A stretch of 44,292 bases of DNA from IMG/VR virus record IMGVR_UViG_2660238147_000001; one strand, given 5' to 3'. The notes under the pieces were generated by a model. The model searched no databases and was not told the DNA's origin. It saw nothing but the letters and a program-made list of their open reading frames with translations. Below are positions 4,505 to 40,455 of the stretch, in pieces; the first letter of the stretch is position 1, and every line of letters starts with the position of its first letter. This DNA is from a virus (lineage: Duplodnaviria; Heunggongvirae; Uroviricota; Caudoviricetes). The position numbers were made by a program, and so were the translations under genes.

Positions 4505-4557
4505 GGGCGGCAGAGCAGTCACGGAGTAAAACTGATACCGCCAAACGTCACCAGAAA
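4505..4557 (-). ncRNA. dicF: DicF small regulatory RNA (anti-ftsZ sRNA)
   Basis: Minus-strand sequence UUUCUGGUGACGUUUGGCGGUAUCAGUUUUACUCCGUGACUGCUCUGCCGCCC followed by a U-tract (4501-4504); matches DicF as I recall it, including the 3' GC-rich hairpin; located between ydfC and dicB. Confidence 0.85.
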
Positions 4558-34290: not shown

Positions 34291-35034
34291 ATGACACAGA
34301 CAGAATCAGCGATTCTGGCGCATGCCCGGCGGTGTGTGCCTGCGGAGTCGTGCGGCTTAGTGGTGAGAACGCCGGAGGGGGAGCGGTATATCCCTTGTGT
34401 GAATATCTCTGCAGAGCCGGAGGTGTATTTTCGTATTGCACCGGAAGACTGGCTGCGGGCAGAGATGCAGGGGGAGATTGTGGCACTGGTCCACAGTCAT
34501 CCCGGTGGGCTGCCCTGGCTGAGCGAGGCTGACCGGCGGCTGCAGATAAAAAGCGCACTGCCCTGGTGGCTGGTCTGCCGGGGTGACATTCACAAATTCC
34601 GCTGTGTGCCACATCTGACGGGACGGCGCTTTGAGCACGGGGTGACGGACTGTTACACGCTGTTCCGGGATGCTTATCATCTGGCGGGGACTGAGATGCC
34701 GGATTTTCATCGCGAGGATGACTGGTGGCGTCACGGTCAGAATCTCTATCTGGATAATCTGGAGGCCACAGGGCTGTATCAGGTGCCGTTGTCAGCGGCG
34801 CAGCCGGGCGATGTGCTGCTGTGCTGTTTTGGTTCATCGGTGCCGAATCATGCCGCCATTTACTGTGGTGACGGCGAGCTGCTGCACCATATTCCTGAAC
34901 AACTGAGTAAACGGGAGAGGTATTCCGAAAAATGGCAACGACGAACGCATTCTGTCTGGCGTCACCGCCACTGGCACGCATCTGCCTTCACGGGGATTTG
35001 CAACGATTTGGCCGCCGCCTCAGCCTGTATGTGA
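34291..35034 (+). CDS. K: Tail tip assembly protein K-like (MPN/JAMM plus NlpC/P60-like domains)
   Basis: Six-frame ORF of 247 aa with HSHP metalloprotease-like motif and Cys/His of an NlpC/P60-like domain; 3' end overlaps the I start by 103 nt, so true boundaries are uncertain. Confidence 0.75.
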   Translation: MTQTESAILAHARRCVPAESCGLVVRTPEGERYIPCVNISAEPEVYFRIAPEDWLRAEMQGEIVALVHSHPGGLPWLSEADRRLQIKSALPWWLVCRGDIHKFRCVPHLTGRRFEHGVTDCYTLFRDAYHLAGTEMPDFHREDDWWRHGQNLYLDNLEATGLYQVPLSAAQPGDVLLCCFGSSVPNHAAIYCGDGELLHHIPEQLSKRERYSEKWQRRTHSVWRHRHWHASAFTGICNDLAAASACM

Positions 35035-35612
35035 ACACGGCAGCGGAAGCCATCCGTGCCCTGTCGTTACAGGTGCCGGGCTTTCGCCGTCAGATGAACG
35101 AAGGCTGGTACCAGATACGTATTGCCGGTGATGACACGGCACCGGAGGCGGTGTACGCCCGTCTTCACGAACAGCTGGGTGAGGGAACGGTCATCCACAT
35201 TGTGCCGCGACTGGCCGGAGCCGGAAAGGGCGGACTGCAGATTGTGCTGGGGGCGGCAGCCATCGTGGGCTCTTTCTTCACGGCCGGTGCCTCGATGGTG
35301 TTATGGGGTACAGCCCTGAGTGCCGGCGGTTTTTCTGCCACCACGATGCTGTTTTCACTGGGGGCCAGCATGATACTGGGCGGTGTGGCCCAGATGCTGG
35401 CCCCGAAGGCAAAAACACCGGATTACCGCGCAACGGATAACGGCAGACAGAACACGTACTTTTCCTCGCTGGATAACATGATTGCCCAGGGGAACCCGAT
35501 GCCGGTGCCTTACGGGGAAATGCTGGTTGGCTCCCGCCGTATATCCCAGGACATCAGCACCCGTGATGAAGGCGGGGGCGGAAAGGTCGTGGTTATCGGG
35601 CGGCAGGGGTAA
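34932..35612 (+). CDS. I: Tail tip assembly protein I-like
   Basis: 226-aa ORF starting MATTNAFCLASPPLARICLHGDLQRFGRR, closely similar to lambda gpI as I recall. Confidence 0.85.
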   Translation: MATTNAFCLASPPLARICLHGDLQRFGRRLSLYVNTAAEAIRALSLQVPGFRRQMNEGWYQIRIAGDDTAPEAVYARLHEQLGEGTVIHIVPRLAGAGKGGLQIVLGAAAIVGSFFTAGASMVLWGTALSAGGFSATTMLFSLGASMILGGVAQMLAPKAKTPDYRATDNGRQNTYFSSLDNMIAQGNPMPVPYGEMLVGSRRISQDISTRDEGGGGKVVVIGRQG

Positions 35613-35619
35613 AAAGAAT

Positions 35620-35716
35620 AAAAAAATCCCGCAGTGATCGCGGACAGGAACTGCGGGAGAGTTACGAAGATTAAGTGTAAGGAATTATTCTTATATCACG
35701 ACAAAAAAATTAACGC
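35620..35716 (-). ncRNA. Candidate small RNA in the I-J intergenic gap
   Basis: Minus-strand unit of ~97 nt bounded by a near-consensus promoter and an intrinsic terminator (hairpin TCCCGCAGT ... ACTGCGGGA, 35627-35658, followed by a 7-U tract); no credible ORF with Shine-Dalgarno inside. Confidence 0.35.
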
Positions 35717-35722
35717 AGAGAA

Positions 35723-35750
35723 ATTATACGCGCCACAGTCAGTTTGTGAA
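35723..35750 (-). promoter_or_regulatory. Near-consensus sigma70 promoter driving the candidate I-J sRNA
   Basis: Minus strand: -35 TTCACA (complement of 35745-35750), 16-nt spacer, perfect -10 TATAAT (complement of 35723-35728). Confidence 0.4.
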
Positions 35751-35821
35751 AATGTGAAGATATTCAGAATTTTTATGCCATTACCGGTTTTAACCAACAG
35801 GATTATCGGTGGGCATGAAAG

Positions 35822-35858
35822 AAAACCCCGGTATCTGCTGATACCGGGGTTTCTCTTT
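35822..35858. terminator. Bidirectional rho-independent terminator in the I-J gap
   Basis: Perfect 9-bp stem CCCCGGTAT / ATACCGGGG with 6-nt loop, flanked by GAAAA upstream and TTTCTCTTT downstream. Confidence 0.55.
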
Positions 35859-35955
35859 AGCATGGCAGAAATGTGTTTCATGCTTTTCGGGCGAAGGATA
35901 TCCGACTTCTGTACGGAATGGCAAGTGGCGGTTAATTTATTCAGGGGAAGGCTGT

Positions 35956-38900
35956 ATGGGAAAAGGTGGCGGTAAGGCACACACGCCTCGTGAGGCGAAG
36001 GATAATCTCAAATCCACGCAGATGATGAGTGTGATTGATGCGATTGGTGAGGGACCGATAGAAGGTCCGGTGAAGGGACTGCAGAGTATTCTGGTGAACA
36101 AAACCCCGCTGACGGACACGGACGGTAATCCCGTGATACACGGTGTGACTGCGGTCTGGCGTGCCGGGGAGCAGGAGCAGACACCACCGGAAGGCTTTGA
36201 GTCCTCCGGAGCTGAAACCGGACTGGGCGTGGAAGTGACGAAGGCAAAACCGGTGACGCGCACCATTACGTCCGCGAACATTGACCGCCTGCGGGTTACC
36301 TTCGGGGTGCAGTCACTGGTGCAGACCACGTCAAAGGGCGACCGTAATCCTTCCTCTGTCCGGATTCTGATTCAGTTACAGCGTAATGGCCGCTGGGTGA
36401 CGGAAAAGGATGTCACCATTAACGGCAAGACCACCTCGCAGTTCCTGGCCTCGGTGATTCTGGATAATCTGCCTCCCCGGCCCTTTAACATCCGGATGGT
36501 CAGGGAGACGGCGGACAGCACCACGGACCAGCTGCAGAATAAGACGCTGTGGTCGTCATACACCGAAATCATCGATGTGAAACAGTGCTACCCGAACACG
36601 GCCATTGTGGGGCTGCAGGTGGATGCGGAGCAGTTCGGCGGCCAGCAGATGACGGTGAACTACCATATCCGCGGTCGCATCATCCAGGTGCCGTCAAACT
36701 ATGACCCGGAAAAACGCACGTACAGTGGTATCTGGGACGGCAGCCTGAAACCGGCATACAGCAACAACCCGGCCTGGTGTCTGTGGGACATGCTGACTCA
36801 CCCGCGCTACGGCATGGGAAAACGTCTGGGGGCGGCGGATGTGGACAAGTGGGCGCTGTATGCCATCGGGCAGTACTGCGACCAGACGGTCCCGGATGGT
36901 TTCGGGGGGACCGAGCCGCGGATGACCTTTAATGCGTACCTGGCACAACAGCGTAAGGCGTGGGACGTTCTCAGTGATTTCTGCTCTGCGATGCGCTGTA
37001 TGCCGGTATGGAACGGCCAGACGCTGATGTTCGTTCAGGACCGTCCGTCGGATGTGGTGTGGCCGTACACCAACAGCGATGTGGTGGTGGATGATAACGG
37101 CGTGGGTTTCCGCTACAGCTTCAGTGCCCTGAAGGACCGGCACACGGCAGTGGAGGTGAATTACACCGACCCGCAGAACGGCTGGCAGACCTCCACGGAA
37201 CTGGTGGAAGACCCGGAAGCCATACTGCGCTACGGACGCAACCTGCTGAAGATGGACGCGTTCGGCTGTACCAGCCGCGGTCAGGCCCACCGTGCCGGGC
37301 TGTGGGTGATAAAGACCGAACTGCTGGAAACGCAGACGGTGGATTTCACGCTCGGGTCACAGGGGCTGCGTCACACACCCGGTGACATCATTGAAATCTG
37401 TGATAACGACTATGCCGGGACCATGACCGGCGGACGTGTCCTGTCCATCGATGCCGCCAGCCGTACCCTGACGCTGGACCGGGAGGTGACACTGCCGGAG
37501 ACCGGCACGGCCACTGTTAATCTGATTAACGGCAGCGGTAAGCCGGCGAGCGTGGCCATCACCGCACACCCCGCGCCTGACCGGATACAGGTCAGCACCC
37601 TGCCGGATGGTGTGGAGACATACGGTGTGTGGGGACTCTCCCTGCCGTCACTGCGTCGTCGCCTGTTCCGCTGTGTCTCCATTCGGGAAAACACGGACGG
37701 CACGTTCGCCATCACGGCGGTGCAGCACGTACCGGAAAAAGAAGCCATTGTGGATAACGGGGCCAGCTTTGAGCCGCAGTCAGGCAGCCTGAACAGCGTT
37801 ATCCCACCGGCAGTGCAGCACCTGACGGTGGAGGTGAGTGCAGCTGACGGTCAGTATCTGGCACAGGCGAAATGGGACACGCCGCGGGTGGTGAAGGGTG
37901 TGCGCTTCAGTCTGCGTCTGACCAGCGGAAGCGGAGAAGACAGCCGTCTGGTGAGCACCGCCATCACCGCAGACACGGAGCACCGTTTCAGTGGTCTGCC
38001 GCTGGGGGAATACACCCTGACGGTGCGGGCCATTAACAGCTACGGCCAGCAGGGCGAACCTGCGACCACCACCTTCCGGATTAACGCGCCTGCAAAACCC
38101 GCCACCATTGAGCTGACGCCGGGGTATTTTCAGATAACGGCGGTCCCGCGTCTTGCGGTGTATGACCCGACGGTACAGTTTGAATTCTGGTTCTCAGAAA
38201 AACGCATCACGAACACGGCACAGGTGGAAAAATCTGCCCGTTATCTGGGGACCGGCAGTCAGTGGACTGTCCAGGGGAGCCGGATTAAGCCGGGGACGGA
38301 TTTCTGGTTTTACGTGCGAAGCGTCAACCTGGTGGGAAAATCTGCTTTTGTGGAAGCCAGCGGGCAGCCCAGCAATGATGGTGAAGGGTATCTGGAAATT
38401 TTCCGGGGGCTGATAGATGAGACGCTTCTGGGCCAGGCACTGAAAGAGCGCATTGATGCTTCAGCGCTGCGTACGGAGGTCACGCAACTGGAAGAAGACA
38501 TCCGTCAGCGGATGGACACGGATATCGCAGAAGTGACCCGGAAAATCGGGGAGGCGGAAAACAGCCTCACGCAGCTGGTTGCGAAAAAGAATGAGGACCA
38601 GACACTGGCCATCGCGCAGGTGAGCCAGAAAGTGGACCGGGTGAGCAGTGAAATCTCACAGACTGTCAGCCAGGGGCAGTCAGAAAATGCCCGACAGATA
38701 GCACAGGTCCGCCAGTACGTGGATAAAAAAGGGAGTGAAATTACCTCGACCACGGATAAAAAACTGGGTGACCAGGCCGTGACCATACAGCAAATCCAGC
38801 GGGTTCAGTCAGACACGCGCAATGAGCTGAATGCCATGTATATGCTGAAGGTGCAGAAAACAAAAAACGGTATTCCCTATGTGGCCGGGATTGGTGCGGG

Positions 38901-39648
38901 GATTGAGGATGTTGATGGTCAGACGCTGAGCAGTATTCTGCTGCAGGCTGACCGTATCGCGATGATTACCCCGGAGAATGGCAACACCACGCCGCTGTTT
39001 GTGGCGCAGGGGAATCAGCTGTTCATGAACGACGTGTTCCTGAAGCGACTGTTTGCGGTGAGCATCACGTCATCCGGCAATCCTCCTACGTTTTCCCTGA
39101 CGCCGGATGGCAGGCTGGCAGCCCGCAATGCGGATATCAGTGGAGCCATCACGGCGAATACCGGCACGCTCAATAATGTCACCATTAACGAGAACTGTGT
39201 CATCAGAGGGAAACTGTCTGCAAACCAGATTGAAGGCGATCTCGTTAAAACAGTGGGTAAGGCTTTCCCCCGTGACTCCCGTGCACCGGAGAGGTGGCCA
39301 TCAGGGACCATTACCGTCAGGGTTTATGACGATCAGCCGTTTGACCGGCAGATTGTTATTCCGGCGGTGGCTTTCAGCGGTGCCAGACATGAGCGGGAGA
39401 ATAGCGATATTTATTCGTCATGCCGCCTGATAGTGCGGAAAAACGGTGCTGAAATTTATAACCGTACCGCGATGGATAATACGCTGGTTTACAGTGGTGT
39501 TATTGATATGCCTGCTGGTCGCGGCGACATGACGCTGGAGTTTTCTGTATCAGCATGGTGGGTAAATGGCTGGTATCCCACAGCAAGTATCAGCGATTTG
39601 CTGGTTGTTGTGATGAAGAAAGCCACTGCAGGCATCACGATTAGCTGA
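35956..39648 (+). CDS. J: Central tail fibre / host specificity protein J-like
   Basis: 1230-aa ORF; N-terminal two-thirds closely resemble lambda gpJ; ~100 aa longer than lambda J with a divergent C-terminal region. Confidence 0.9.
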
Positions 39649-39667
39649 ATTTTATAACCCCAATACG

Positions 39668-39694
39668 GGCGCCAGAAATGGCGCCTTTTTTATT
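39668..39694 (+). terminator. Rho-independent terminator downstream of J
   Basis: Stem GGCGCC / GGCGCC with AGAAAT loop, followed by TTTTTTATT. Confidence 0.65.
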
Positions 39695-39715: not shown

Positions 39716-40315
39716 ATGCGTAAATTATGTGCTGTTATTCTGTCCGCAGTAGTCTGGCTGGTTGCCGCTGGTACGCCAGCGAGCGCAGCAGAGCATCAGT
39801 CCACACTAAGCGCCGGGTATCTTCAGACCCACACTGATATGCCAGGCAGCGATAATCTGAACGGGATTAACGTGAAATACCGTTATGAGTTTACGGACGC
39901 GCTGGGGCTGATTACGTCCTTCAGTTATGCCAATGCTGAGGATGAGCAAAAAACGCACTACAGCGATACCCGCTGGCATGAAGATTCCGTGCGTAACCGC
40001 TGGTTCAGCGTGATGGCGGGGCCGTCTGTGCGCGTGAATGAATGGTTCAGTGCTTATGCGATGGCGGGTGTGGCTTACAGCCGTGTGTCGACTTTCTCCG
40101 GGGATTATCTCCGCGTAACTGACAACAAGGGGAAAACGCACGATGTGCTGACCGGAAGTGATGACGGTCGCCACAGCAATACCTCTCTGGCGTGGGGAGC
40201 TGGCGTGCAGTTTAACCCGACCGAATCCGTGGCCATTGATATTGCTTATGAAGGCTCCGGCAGTGGCGACTGGCGAACGGATGCATTTATTGTTGGTATC
40301 GGATACCGTTTCTGA
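39716..40315 (+). CDS. lom: Lom-family outer membrane protein (Ail/Lom/OmpX beta-barrel)
   Basis: 199-aa ORF with signal peptide (MRKLCAVILSAVVWLVAAGTPASA) and C-terminal aromatic residue; GAGAGG Shine-Dalgarno; flanked by terminators, consistent with a moron expressed in the lysogen. Confidence 0.85.
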   Translation: MRKLCAVILSAVVWLVAAGTPASAAEHQSTLSAGYLQTHTDMPGSDNLNGINVKYRYEFTDALGLITSFSYANAEDEQKTHYSDTRWHEDSVRNRWFSVMAGPSVRVNEWFSAYAMAGVAYSRVSTFSGDYLRVTDNKGKTHDVLTGSDDGRHSNTSLAWGAGVQFNPTESVAIDIAYEGSGSGDWRTDAFIVGIGYRF

Positions 40316-40420
40316 CAACAGACGCCGATTTATCTTCTGTAAATATTGTTATGATACGCAGGTTCATCCGCCTTATGGGGTGAACTGCGTTTGAGGAAAC
40401 GTAAAGTTACACTGTCCTGA

Positions 40421-40455
40421 AGCCCGTGGCGTCACTGCTGCGGGCTTTTTTTATT
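40421..40455 (+). terminator. Rho-independent terminator downstream of lom
   Basis: Stem AGCCCG / CGGGCT with a 14-nt loop, followed by TTTTTTTATT. Confidence 0.55.

What the first reader, a model, noticed from the sequence alone, without database searches (positions are those of the whole stretch)
35612..35860. Small-RNA locus inserted between tail genes I and J
Lambda has no comparable gap between I and J; here a ~340-bp non-coding spacer carries a minus-strand near-consensus promoter (TTCACA, 16 nt, TATAAT), an ~97-nt transcribed segment ending in a strong hairpin plus 7-U terminator (35620-35658), and a second bidirectional terminator (35822-35858) that could bound a plus-strand transcript. 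The track ORFs here lack ribosome-binding sites and run across the terminators. I recall prophage-encoded anti-sRNAs (AgvB-type) being reported in EHEC prophage tail regions, but I cannot confirm this is one.
Basis: partly seen in the sequence, partly recalled or inferred. Interest (0 to 1): 0.65.

Follow-up and report, generated by a model that had tools for sequence, protein, structure and literature searches.

The report
PasB-type prophage small RNA gene
The gap between tail genes I and J holds a divergent copy of PasB, a small regulatory RNA already shown experimentally in pathogenic E. coli prophages, so the locus is real but belongs to a known family and is not an AgvB-type anti-sRNA.

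Summary
I ends at 35612 and J starts at 35956, a 343-bp spacer; lambda has 60 bp there. On the minus strand sit an 11/12 sigma-70 promoter (35750..35723) and an intrinsic terminator (35657..35620), which predict a 97-nt RNA.

It is a homologue of PasB, an 83-nt Hfq-dependent sRNA of EPEC E2348/69 that lies at the same I-J position on the same strand. The published PasB northern probe matches the window 20/23. A profile built from PasB plus the Sakai EcOnc22 locus hits only here (E 1.4e-22). After a +128-nt coordinate correction that I infer, EcOnc22/23/24 of O157 Sakai (about 85 nt, Hfq-dependent) fall on the same family.

The window allele is 73-74% identical to PasB. It occurs in 800 of 5426 complete E. 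coli genomes, including CFT073 and ATCC 25922, and is never annotated. The search settings of the published PasB census would probably have missed it.

It is not AgvB/AsxR: there is no Rfam match, the phage position differs, the RNA is longer, and PasB had no sRNA partners in RIL-seq.

The second hairpin (35820-35858) is real, but I found no plus-strand promoter for it.

Verdict: a new, divergent allele of a known sRNA family, of modest interest.

The parts
35723..35750 (-). Sigma-70 promoter of the sRNA: -35 TTCACA (35750-35745), 16-nt spacer, -10 TATAAT (35728-35723)
   Evidence: Consensus scan, 11/12 match. The same hexamers and spacing occur upstream of E2348/69 PasB. The -10 is TATAAT or AATAAT in nearly all of the 38 IMG/VR variants.
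35620..35716 (-). Predicted primary transcript of the PasB-family sRNA (97 nt from G35716). The stretch equivalent to the annotated 83-nt PasB is 35703..35620 (84 nt).
   Evidence: Promoter and terminator geometry. 73-74% identity to PasB. nhmmer profile of the validated members: E 1.9e-11 for the RNA alone and 1.4e-22 with the promoter, the only significant hit in the window. The PasB northern probe AATCCCGCAGTGATCGCGGAGCT matches the plus strand at 35625-35644 for 20 of 23 bases.
35620..35657 (-). Intrinsic terminator: stem CCCGCAGU/ACUGCGGG, 14-nt loop, then A and U7. The near arm CCGCG (35643-35639) offers an alternative pairing.
   Evidence: The stem CCCGCAG/CUGCGGG is the same in nearly all variants while the loop varies in length.
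35684..35692 (-). AAG-AAU-AAU: three A-R-N triplets directly 5' of the UCCUU core, a candidate Hfq distal-face site
   Evidence: Read from the sequence. The E2348/69 allele (AAC-AAA-AAC-AAC) and the Sakai allele (AAA-AAU-AAC) keep such triplets at the same place although the sequences differ. The Hfq role is inferred.
35664..35684 (-). Single-stranded conserved core UUCCUUACACUUAAUCUUCGU (an anti-Shine-Dalgarno-like UCCUU and AAUCUUC): the candidate seed
   Evidence: Most conserved internal block across allele classes. Largely unpaired in the predicted fold. Zhu et al. place the PasB seed just upstream of the terminator.
35745..35769 (-). Block upstream of and including the -35 (TTCTGAATATCTTCACATTTTCACA, with TTCACA repeated twice); possible UP element or regulator site
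   Evidence: Identical in the window, E2348/69 and an Stx1a phage and partly kept in Sakai Sp11/14/15. Its invariance among the IMG/VR loci is by construction, because 21 nt of it was the search pattern.
35772..35819 (.). First hairpin of the long right-hand module (AUGCC..ACCGGU / AUCGGU..GGCAU)
   Evidence: Plus-strand fold of 35760-35868, z = -5.3. The module is present only in the long-spacer class.
35820..35858 (.). Second hairpin: a bidirectional terminator-like stem (AACCCCGGUAUC / GAUACCGGGGUU) with U-rich runs on both strands
   Evidence: Short-spacer loci carry an unrelated hairpin with a plus-strand U-tract at the same place, and one of its pairs covaries T-A / C-G / T.G. One locus (L065) has lost the hairpin through a 47-bp deletion.
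35895..35924 (-). Weak minus-strand promoter-like site (TTGCCA-18-TATCCT, 9/12) that could drive a ~75-nt RNA ending at the second hairpin; speculative
   Evidence: site; fold of 35888..35813, z = -6.7. There is no experimental or comparative support. No EcOnc Hfq peak is listed at the same module in Sakai Sp12.
34932..35612 (+). Tail assembly gene I (upstream neighbour); its stop codon lies 7 nt before the end of the sRNA's U-tract
   Evidence: ORF; annotation in ATCC 25922; RefSeq starts it further downstream and calls a 582-nt gene.
35956..39648 (+). Tail tip / host specificity gene J (downstream neighbour)

Best explanation
The spacer is a small moron: a self-contained gene for a PasB-family, Hfq-dependent, trans-acting sRNA, inserted between tail genes I and J and read against the late operon. 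In the lysogen its own near-consensus sigma-70 promoter starts transcription at about 35716. The intrinsic terminator stops it at about 35620, just short of the I stop codon, giving an RNA of about 84-97 nt. The RNA has a U-rich 5' stretch, three A-R-N triplets, an unstructured core (UUCCUUACACUUAAUCUUCGU) and a terminator hairpin with a U7 tail, which is the usual layout of an Hfq-binding sRNA. Shown here: the sequence features, homology, synteny and distribution. Shown by others, for homologues only: a transcript of about 83-85 nt, loss of the RNA without Hfq, and 37 Hfq-mediated RNA partners that are almost all mRNA coding regions or 5'UTRs. Inferred: that this allele is expressed, binds Hfq, and pairs through its core with ribosome-binding regions of host or prophage mRNAs. 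Because the body differs by about 26% from PasB, its target set probably differs in part. The hairpin upstream of the promoter (35820-35858) most likely insulates the unit, stopping un-antiterminated plus-strand transcription before J. Q-modified late transcription would read through it, as it must through the terminators after J and after lom.
For: Sequence features: promoter 11/12, terminator and 97-nt geometry.

Synteny: E2348/69 PasB (NC_011601.1 1466343..1466261, minus strand, 83 nt) lies between tail assembly gene I and gpJ of prophage PP6, antisense to them.

Homology: the promoter hexamers, spacing, 5' leader and terminator align. The PasB northern probe matches 20/23. nhmmer gives E 1.1e-5 with PasB alone. 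A profile of the two validated loci gives E 1.9e-11 for the RNA alone and 1.4e-22 with the promoter, the only significant hit in 44 kb.

Experiments on homologues: PasB was seen on northern blots, falls by log2 -6.8 and -2.4 in delta-hfq, and has 37 RIL-seq partners (0 sRNA, 30 CDS/5'UTR) with an RNA2 fraction of 1.0/0.99. Sakai EcOnc22/23/24 (about 85 nt, destabilised in delta-hfq) all lie in I-J spacers antisense to the late operon. After the +128 shift, calibrated on HnrS, their Hfq peaks fall on the homologous RNA body.

Conservation: there are 38 distinct variants in 120 IMG/VR loci, with promoter, core and terminator kept. The window allele is in 800/5426 complete E. coli genomes and the PasB allele in 956/5426.

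Not coding: no Pfam hit and frame-breaking indels between alleles.
Against: No expression data exist for this allele. PGAP annotates nothing here in any genome, and no Rfam family covers it. The promoter predicts 97-98 nt, whereas PasB was annotated as 83 nt and EcOnc22 ran at about 85 nt. The 5' end is therefore uncertain: it may be processed, the start may differ, or the sizes may be imprecise. Apart from the terminator there is no conserved secondary structure and no covariation; the terminator stem does not vary, which is neither for nor against it. Targets are uncharacterised even for PasB. The equation of EcOnc22-24 with this family rests on an inferred coordinate shift.
Confidence: 0.85

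Rival explanations
1. It is an AgvB/AsxR-type anti-sRNA, a sponge that pairs with the seed of a core sRNA and blocks it.
For: It is prophage-encoded, short and Hfq-type, and carries A-R-N triplets like those reported in the 5' regions of AgvB and AsxR. Its variable body between a conserved promoter and terminator recalls the variable 5' / conserved 3' design of that family.
Against: Rfam AgvB (RF02702) and AsxR (RF02703) give no match in the window at gathering score, nor in the spacer at E<=10. AgvB and AsxR lie downstream of PR'/Q, not in the tail region, and are 51-60 nt long. PasB had 0 sRNA partners among its 37 RIL-seq partners.
Confidence: 0.04
2. Its main job is in cis. It is perfectly complementary to the I-J junction of the late mRNA, so it would pair with that transcript (its own or that of an incoming related phage) and alter processing or J expression. 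Allele diversification would then give specificity. This could coexist with trans targets.
For: The whole RNA is antisense to the 97 nt of late mRNA just after I. Its position and strand are fixed in every locus examined. Between the window and Sakai Sp12 the RNA body is only 64-83% identical, while the flanks at 35400-35599 and 35750-36349 are 94-100% identical. That cassette-like pattern is what specificity selection or modular exchange would give.
Against: There is no direct evidence. PasB has many trans partners on Hfq. The late operon is essentially silent in lysogens (tail genes have base means of 3-15 in EPEC RNA-seq), so there is little cis target when the sRNA is made. Mosaic recombination alone can produce the divergence pattern.
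Confidence: 0.08
3. The functional unit is, or includes, a second small RNA in the right half (35760-35890). It would be either a plus-strand RNA ending at the 35820-35858 hairpin, or a minus-strand RNA of about 75 nt driven from the weak promoter at 35924..35895.
For: Two adjacent stable hairpins, z = -5.3 (plus) and -6.7 (minus). A hairpin with a plus-strand U-tract recurs at this position with unrelated sequence and one covarying pair in short-spacer loci. A 9/12 minus-strand promoter-like site is present.
Against: No plus-strand promoter reaches 9/12. Rfam gives only sub-threshold, terminator-driven hits. The module is nearly invariant, so there is no covariation to test. Sakai Sp12 carries the module but no EcOnc Hfq peak is listed there. 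One locus has lost the hairpin (L065). Terminators inside the late operon are common here, after J and after lom.
Confidence: 0.1
4. The spacer is the remnant of a decayed protein gene, or neutral filler, and the promoter and terminator matches are fortuitous.
For: Some phage records carry automatic 'hypothetical protein' or 'tail fiber protein' calls over the spacer. Mechanical ORFs of 44-113 aa cross it.
Against: No Pfam match. Indels that are not multiples of three separate the alleles. The short-spacer class lacks about 100 bp of these ORFs. Homologues are proven Hfq-dependent RNAs.
Confidence: 0.02

Closest known systems
PasB (E2348CN_0006), prophage PP6 of EPEC O127:H6 E2348/69 (Pearl Mizrahi et al. 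2021, PMC8550237; census by Zhu, Shabalina and Storz 2026, bioRxiv 10.64898/2026.05.13.724894)
   Same: Same position (I-J spacer) and same strand (antisense to the late operon), with the terminator abutting the I stop codon. Same promoter hexamers and spacing, same 5' leader (GCGUUA + U-run), same UCCUU..AUCUUC core, and same terminator stem with U7.
   Different: The body is only 73-74% identical and the longest exact match is 25 nt. BLAST with word size 28 finds nothing, and word size 11 finds only the last 25 nt, about 30% coverage. It would therefore fail the census settings of word 28 and >75% coverage. It also exceeds the 'few nucleotide differences' reported among PasB variants. The terminator loop is 5 nt longer. 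The window locus has the long 214-nt right-hand module, whereas E2348/69 has the short 112-nt one. Carriers of the window allele include CFT073, ATCC 25922 and many human clinical isolates.
EcOnc22/23/24 of E. coli O157:H7 Sakai prophages Sp15, Sp14 and Sp11 (Tree et al. 2014, PMC4104026, Table S2)
   Same: They lie in I-J spacers on the strand antisense to the late operon. They share the core and terminator, run at about 85 nt on northern blots and are destabilised without Hfq.
   Different: This is a third allele, 68% identical to the window RNA, with a degenerate -35 and an AATAAT -10. The link depends on shifting the 2014 coordinates by +128 nt onto NC_002695.2. I inferred that shift from the HnrS/EcOnc11 unit. 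Neither source paper states that PasB and EcOnc22-24 are the same family.
AgvB and AsxR anti-sRNAs (Rfam RF02702, RF02703)
   Same: Prophage-encoded, short, Hfq-associated, with A-R-N motifs and a variable body next to conserved ends.
   Different: No sequence or structure match. They sit downstream of PR'/Q next to stx or the lysis genes, are 51-60 nt long, and act on core sRNAs. PasB has only mRNA or IGR partners.
HnrS (EcOnc10/11/12; Poudyal et al. 2026, PMC13502914)
   Same: A multicopy prophage late-region sRNA with its own promoter and intrinsic terminator; it shares the octamer UAAUCUUC.
   Different: It lies between Rz and the terminase genes, not at I-J. It is 66 nt long and otherwise unrelated. 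Its hha-pairing seed CUUCUACC is absent from the window RNA.

Membership tests
PasB sRNA family | Encoded in the spacer between tail assembly gene I and host-specificity gene J of a lambdoid prophage, on the strand opposite the late operon | tested here: met
   Window. E2348/69 PasB coordinates fall between the tail assembly protein and gpJ.
PasB sRNA family | Detectable sequence homology to PasB over most of the transcript | tested here: met
   nhmmer with PasB alone covers positions 6-81 of 83, E 1.1e-5; global identity is 73-74%. A profile of the E2348/69 and Sakai loci gives E 1.9e-11 (RNA) and 1.4e-22 (with promoter), the only significant hit in the window.
PasB sRNA family | Own sigma-70 promoter and intrinsic terminator with a U7 tail at conserved positions | tested here: met
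PasB sRNA family | Recoverable as a PasB variant under the published census criteria (blastn word size 28, query coverage >75%, variants differing by a few nucleotides) | tested here: not met
   No hit at word size 28; at word sizes 11 and 7 the only significant match is a 25-nt HSP, about 30% coverage. Criteria as stated. It is therefore a divergent allele outside the set described so far.
PasB sRNA family | Transcript of about 83 nt whose abundance depends on Hfq and which forms Hfq-mediated chimeras with mRNAs | not testable with these tools
   Shown for PasB only. For this allele it needs a northern blot, RNA-seq or RIL-seq in a carrier strain.
EcOnc22/23/24 (Sakai) | Hfq-CRAC peak on the antisense strand of an I-J spacer, over a homologous RNA body | tested here: met
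   All three peaks lie in I-J spacers. After the +128 shift they cover CUUUUUUGAUGCCUGAAAAAUAACUCCAUAACGUUAAUCUUCAUCGUUCUCUCCCGCAG, which aligns with the window RNA. The shift is inferred, not documented.
AgvB / AsxR anti-sRNAs | Match to Rfam RF02702 or RF02703 (the shared ~42-nt 3' region) | tested here: not met
   No hit in the whole window at gathering score, nor in 35400-36100 at E<=10.
AgvB / AsxR anti-sRNAs | Located at the moron site downstream of Q/PR', convergent with a partner sRNA; length 51-60 nt | tested here: not met
   The window locus is in the tail region, about 21 kb downstream of the tRNA/STnc100 moron site at 13.8-14.9 kb. The predicted length is 84-97 nt.
AgvB / AsxR anti-sRNAs | Acts by pairing with the seed of a core sRNA | not testable with these tools
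   Not testable for this allele. The homologue PasB had 0 sRNA partners of 37, which argues against it.
HnrS | 66-nt sRNA between the lysis and terminase genes, with the hha-pairing seed CUUCUACC | tested here: not met
   HnrS maps to Sakai NC_002695.2 1946945-1947010, between Rz and ECs_1967. Its seed pairs with hha GGUAGAAG. The window RNA lacks this seed.

The most novel reading that the evidence does not exclude
The I-J sRNA may be an allele-specific antisense element rather than only a host-directed trans regulator. Each prophage's RNA is perfectly complementary to the I-J junction of late mRNA from phages carrying the same cassette, and only about 65-75% complementary to other cassettes. 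Lysogens could then damp tail-tip (J) expression of their own leaky late transcripts, or of related superinfecting or co-induced phages. The sharp, cassette-like divergence of the RNA body between near-identical flanks would record selection for escape and specificity. The adjacent hairpin module could help by defining mRNA ends.
Probability: 0.08. Interest if true: 0.65.

Novelty: new member of a known kind. Interest (0 to 1): 0.3.

Why it matters
This puts a name and an experimentally grounded function class on a spacer left blank in every RefSeq annotation I examined. It appears to link two separately reported RNAs, PasB in EPEC and EcOnc22-24 in EHEC, as one family fixed at the I-J junction of lambdoid prophages.

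The family is also broader than the published census suggests. The window allele is in 800 of 5426 complete E. coli genomes, including standard strains such as CFT073 and ATCC 25922. The PasB allele is in 956, and there is at least a third allele. PasB-type regulation is therefore not confined to LEE-positive or diarrhoeagenic strains.

The allele cassettes, with a divergent body between a conserved promoter and terminator, offer a natural experiment on how sRNA seeds and target sets diversify by phage recombination.

Tried and rejected
- **Rfam:** the whole window at gathering score and the spacer at E<=10 gave nothing meaningful in the spacer, only sub-threshold hits driven by the terminator hairpins.
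- **AgvB/AsxR identity:** rejected on sequence, position, size and partner type.
- **HnrS identity:** rejected. I located HnrS in Sakai between Rz and the terminase genes. It is unrelated apart from the shared octamer UAAUCUUC.
- **Shared hha target with HnrS:** RNAduplex of the PasB-type alleles against the hha leader gave only long, non-specific duplexes. These were not clearly better than shuffles (fraction of shuffles at least as good: 0.03-0.14), and the HnrS-type pairing was not reproduced.
- **Protein-coding reading:** no Pfam hits, and indels break the frames.
- **Repeat or mobile-element origin of the right half:** blastn of the spacer against the window found only the hairpin's self-match, plus a 17/18 match to the lom terminator arm. 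In phage genomes the module occurs only at I-J.
none at 9/12 or better. By eye the best candidate is CAGTCA-17-GATATT, 7/12.
- **Literature search for the RNA sequence itself:** six 18-20-mers in DNA and RNA spelling gave no paper.
- **Genome-wide target prediction:** not possible, because no whole genome is available to the script environment.
- **Species range:** the window-class core was found only in Escherichia albertii among 185,579 species representatives.
Full report
**What is in the sequence.** The window is a lambdoid prophage. Tail gene I ends at 35612 and J starts at 35956, leaving 343 non-coding bases. Lambda has 60 bp at this junction.

On the minus strand the consensus scan finds TTCACA-16-TATAAT at 35750..35723, an 11/12 match, and a terminator. 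Read directly, the terminator is CCCGCAGU (35657-35650) paired with ACUGCGGG (35635-35628), then A and U7 (35626-35620). It ends 7 nt short of the I stop codon.

A start at G35716 gives a 97-nt RNA. Apart from the terminator, this RNA is AU-rich and weakly structured (MFE -19.4 kcal/mol, z = -2.1).

The second hairpin at 35820-35858 is also real and very stable.

The ORFs that cross the spacer have no Pfam match. Indels that are not multiples of three break their frames in related loci.

**What it is.** Pearl Mizrahi et al. (PMC8550237) described PasB in EPEC E2348/69. It is an 83-nt sRNA at NC_011601.1 1466343..1466261 on the minus strand, in prophage PP6, between E2348C_1436 and E2348C_1437. 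In RefSeq those two genes are the tail assembly protein I and gpJ, so PasB lies at the same junction on the same antisense strand.

- The published northern probe, AATCCCGCAGTGATCGCGGAGCT, matches the window plus strand at 35625-35644 for 20 of 23 bases.
- In alignment, the -35, the 16-nt spacing, the -10, the 5' leader GCGUUA plus a U-run, an internal core and the terminator are shared. The body has diverged.
- Global identity is 73-74%, and nhmmer with PasB alone gives E 1.1e-5 over positions 6-81 of 83.
- A profile built only from the two experimentally supported loci (E2348/69 PasB and Sakai EcOnc22) hits the window once. The hit spans 35760..35621 with E 1.4e-22, or E 1.9e-11 for the transcribed part alone.

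**Experimental status of the family.** PasB was seen on northern blots and falls sharply in a delta-hfq strain (log2 -6.8 and -2.4). It is more abundant under non-activating conditions. In RIL-seq it has 37 partners: 0 sRNAs, 30 CDS/5'UTR and 4 3'UTR/IGR. It is almost always the second RNA in chimeras (1.0 and 0.99), which is the signature of a canonical trans-acting sRNA.

A second, independent line appears to exist. Tree et al. (PMC4104026, Table S2) list EcOnc22, 23 and 24 in Sakai prophages Sp15, Sp14 and Sp11. They are homologues of one another, about 85 nt on a northern blot, and destabilised without Hfq. All three coordinates fall in I-J spacers on the strand antisense to the late operon.

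Taken at face value, the peaks sit about 130 nt from the sRNA body. But those coordinates refer to the older Sakai record. I calibrated the offset on EcOnc11 (HnrS):

- In NC_002695.2 the only promoter-terminator unit in that spacer is a 66-nt RNA at 1946945-1947010.
- It carries the CUUCUACC seed that pairs with hha GGUAGAAG, as published for HnrS.
- This is 126-143 nt beyond the tabulated 1946819-1946867.
- The current record is 5,498,578 bp. From memory the original was 5,498,450 bp, a difference of 128.

With +128, all three peaks land on CUUUUUUGAUGCCUGAAAAAUAACUCCAUAACGUUAAUCUUCAUCGUUCUCUCCCGCAG, the body of the homologous RNA. I conclude that EcOnc22-24 and PasB are one family. This is my inference; neither paper says so.

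**Alleles and distribution.** They contain 38 distinct promoter-to-terminator variants that mix a few body modules. That block's invariance among these loci is by construction.

In 5426 complete E. coli genomes, the window allele (97-nt query) is found in 800, and 613 of those are at least 99% identical. Carriers include CFT073, ATCC 25922 and many human clinical isolates. The E2348/69 allele is found in 956 genomes. No match is ever annotated.

Zhu et al. counted PasB in 1,107 chromosomes, using blastn with word size 28 and >75% coverage, and reported only a few nucleotide differences among variants. The window allele shares at most a 25-nt exact word with PasB. It gives no hit at word size 28, and only a 25-nt HSP at word size 11. 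It was therefore very probably outside their census.

Sakai Sp12 carries the PasB-2-type body inside the same long spacer as the window. Between the two, the flanks at 35400-35599 and 35750-36349 are 94-100% identical, while the RNA body drops to 64-83%. This is a cassette-like swap between a conserved promoter and terminator.

Among one genome per species of bacteria and archaea, the window-class core occurs only in Escherichia albertii.

**How it most likely works.** All three allele classes keep the following features:

- a 5' U-run;
- three or four A-R-N triplets (AAG-AAU-AAU here, 35692-35684);
- immediately after them, UCC(U/A)U and UU(A/G)AUCUUC(G/A)U in a largely unpaired stretch (35684-35664);
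- the terminator with U7.

By analogy with established Hfq biology, U-rich 3' ends bind the proximal face of Hfq and A-R-N repeats bind the distal face. I infer an Hfq-bound sRNA whose UCCUU/AAUCUUC core pairs with purine-rich ribosome-binding regions of mRNAs. Zhu et al. likewise place the PasB seed just upstream of the terminator. Expression in the lysogen from its own promoter, and the target set of this allele, remain inferred.

**The right half.** Loci fall into two classes.

- The short class has about 111 nt from the -35 to the J start codon. It carries a hairpin with a plus-strand U-tract (CAGGCAyyC...GrrUGCCUG UUGUUUUU). One of its pairs is T-A, C-G or T.G in different loci, which is a genuine compensatory change.
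- The long class (the window, 214 nt) carries an unrelated two-hairpin module whose second hairpin is bidirectional.

So a terminator facing J is kept at this position by two unrelated sequences. No plus-strand promoter is detectable, and plus-strand terminators also follow J and lom. I therefore read it as an insulator belonging to the inserted unit, which Q-modified polymerase would ignore. I do not read it as the end of a separate plus-strand sRNA.

A minus-strand RNA of about 75 nt from a weak 9/12 promoter (35924..35895) cannot be excluded, but nothing supports it.

**Comparison and verdict.** The locus is not AgvB/AsxR. There is no Rfam match, the phage position and size differ, and the homologue has no sRNA partners. 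It is not HnrS either. It is a divergent, widespread and so far unnamed allele of the PasB/EcOnc22 family: a new member of a known kind.

A specialist would not be surprised by the existence of the RNA. The useful additions are the link between the EPEC and EHEC reports, the extension to carriers such as the uropathogen CFT073 and ATCC 25922, and the cassette-like allele structure.

Noticed in passing
window 4505-4556 (-), 10323-10494 (+), 13784-14030 (+), 14730-14919 (+): Rfam gathering-score hits elsewhere in the prophage: DicF, sok antitoxin RNA, three tRNAs, and STnc100 (which Zhu et al. relate to PasD). The prophage therefore carries at least three other known small RNAs besides the I-J one.
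   Followed up: no
window 39667-39686 and 40419-40448 (+): Strong plus-strand intrinsic terminators directly after J and after the lom-like gene (39716-40315), inside the late operon. The 3' arm of the lom terminator resembles the PasB-type terminator arm (17/18 match to 35617-35634, opposite strand).
   Followed up: partly
window 35600-35749 versus Sakai Sp12 (L128 12393-12733): Divergence is confined to the sRNA body (64-83% identity in 50-nt bins), while flanks on both sides are 94-100% identical. This is a cassette-like allele exchange bounded by the promoter and the terminator.
   Followed up: partly
L034 (IMG/VR 2534681940_000025), just downstream of the -35 of the sRNA promoter: The homologous locus is interrupted right after TTCACAAACTGA by sequence that looks, from memory, like an IS3-family (IS629/IS1203-type) end (TGAACCGCCCCGGGAATCCTGGAGAC...), so the sRNA gene is cut off from its promoter there. 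In L020 the long right-hand module is replaced after ...CAACAGGATT.
   Followed up: no
L065 (IMG/VR 2671180417_000014), equivalent to window 35825-35871: A 47-bp deletion between two AGAAA repeats removes the whole second hairpin, so that hairpin is dispensable in at least one prophage.
   Followed up: no
Sakai NC_002695.2 (L124, L125, L126, L127): The EcOnc coordinates in Tree et al. 2014 Table S2 appear to be about 128 nt lower than in the current Sakai record. Uncorrected, EcOnc22-24 and HnrS/EcOnc11 seem to lie beside the RNAs they describe rather than on them.
   Followed up: yes
window 35628-35657 (-): The terminator carries two alternative 5' arms (CCCGCAG at 35657-35651 and CCGCG at 35643-39) for the single 3' arm CUGCGGG, as if the left arm had been partly duplicated. 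Shorter variants (CCCGCAACUCUGCGGG) lack the duplication.
   Followed up: no
window 35772-35858 (+): The long right-hand module folds as two adjacent hairpins (z = -5.3). Its best Rfam hit is a sub-threshold match to a Streptococcus sRNA model (27 bits against a gathering score of 48), which I regard as chance.
   Followed up: partly
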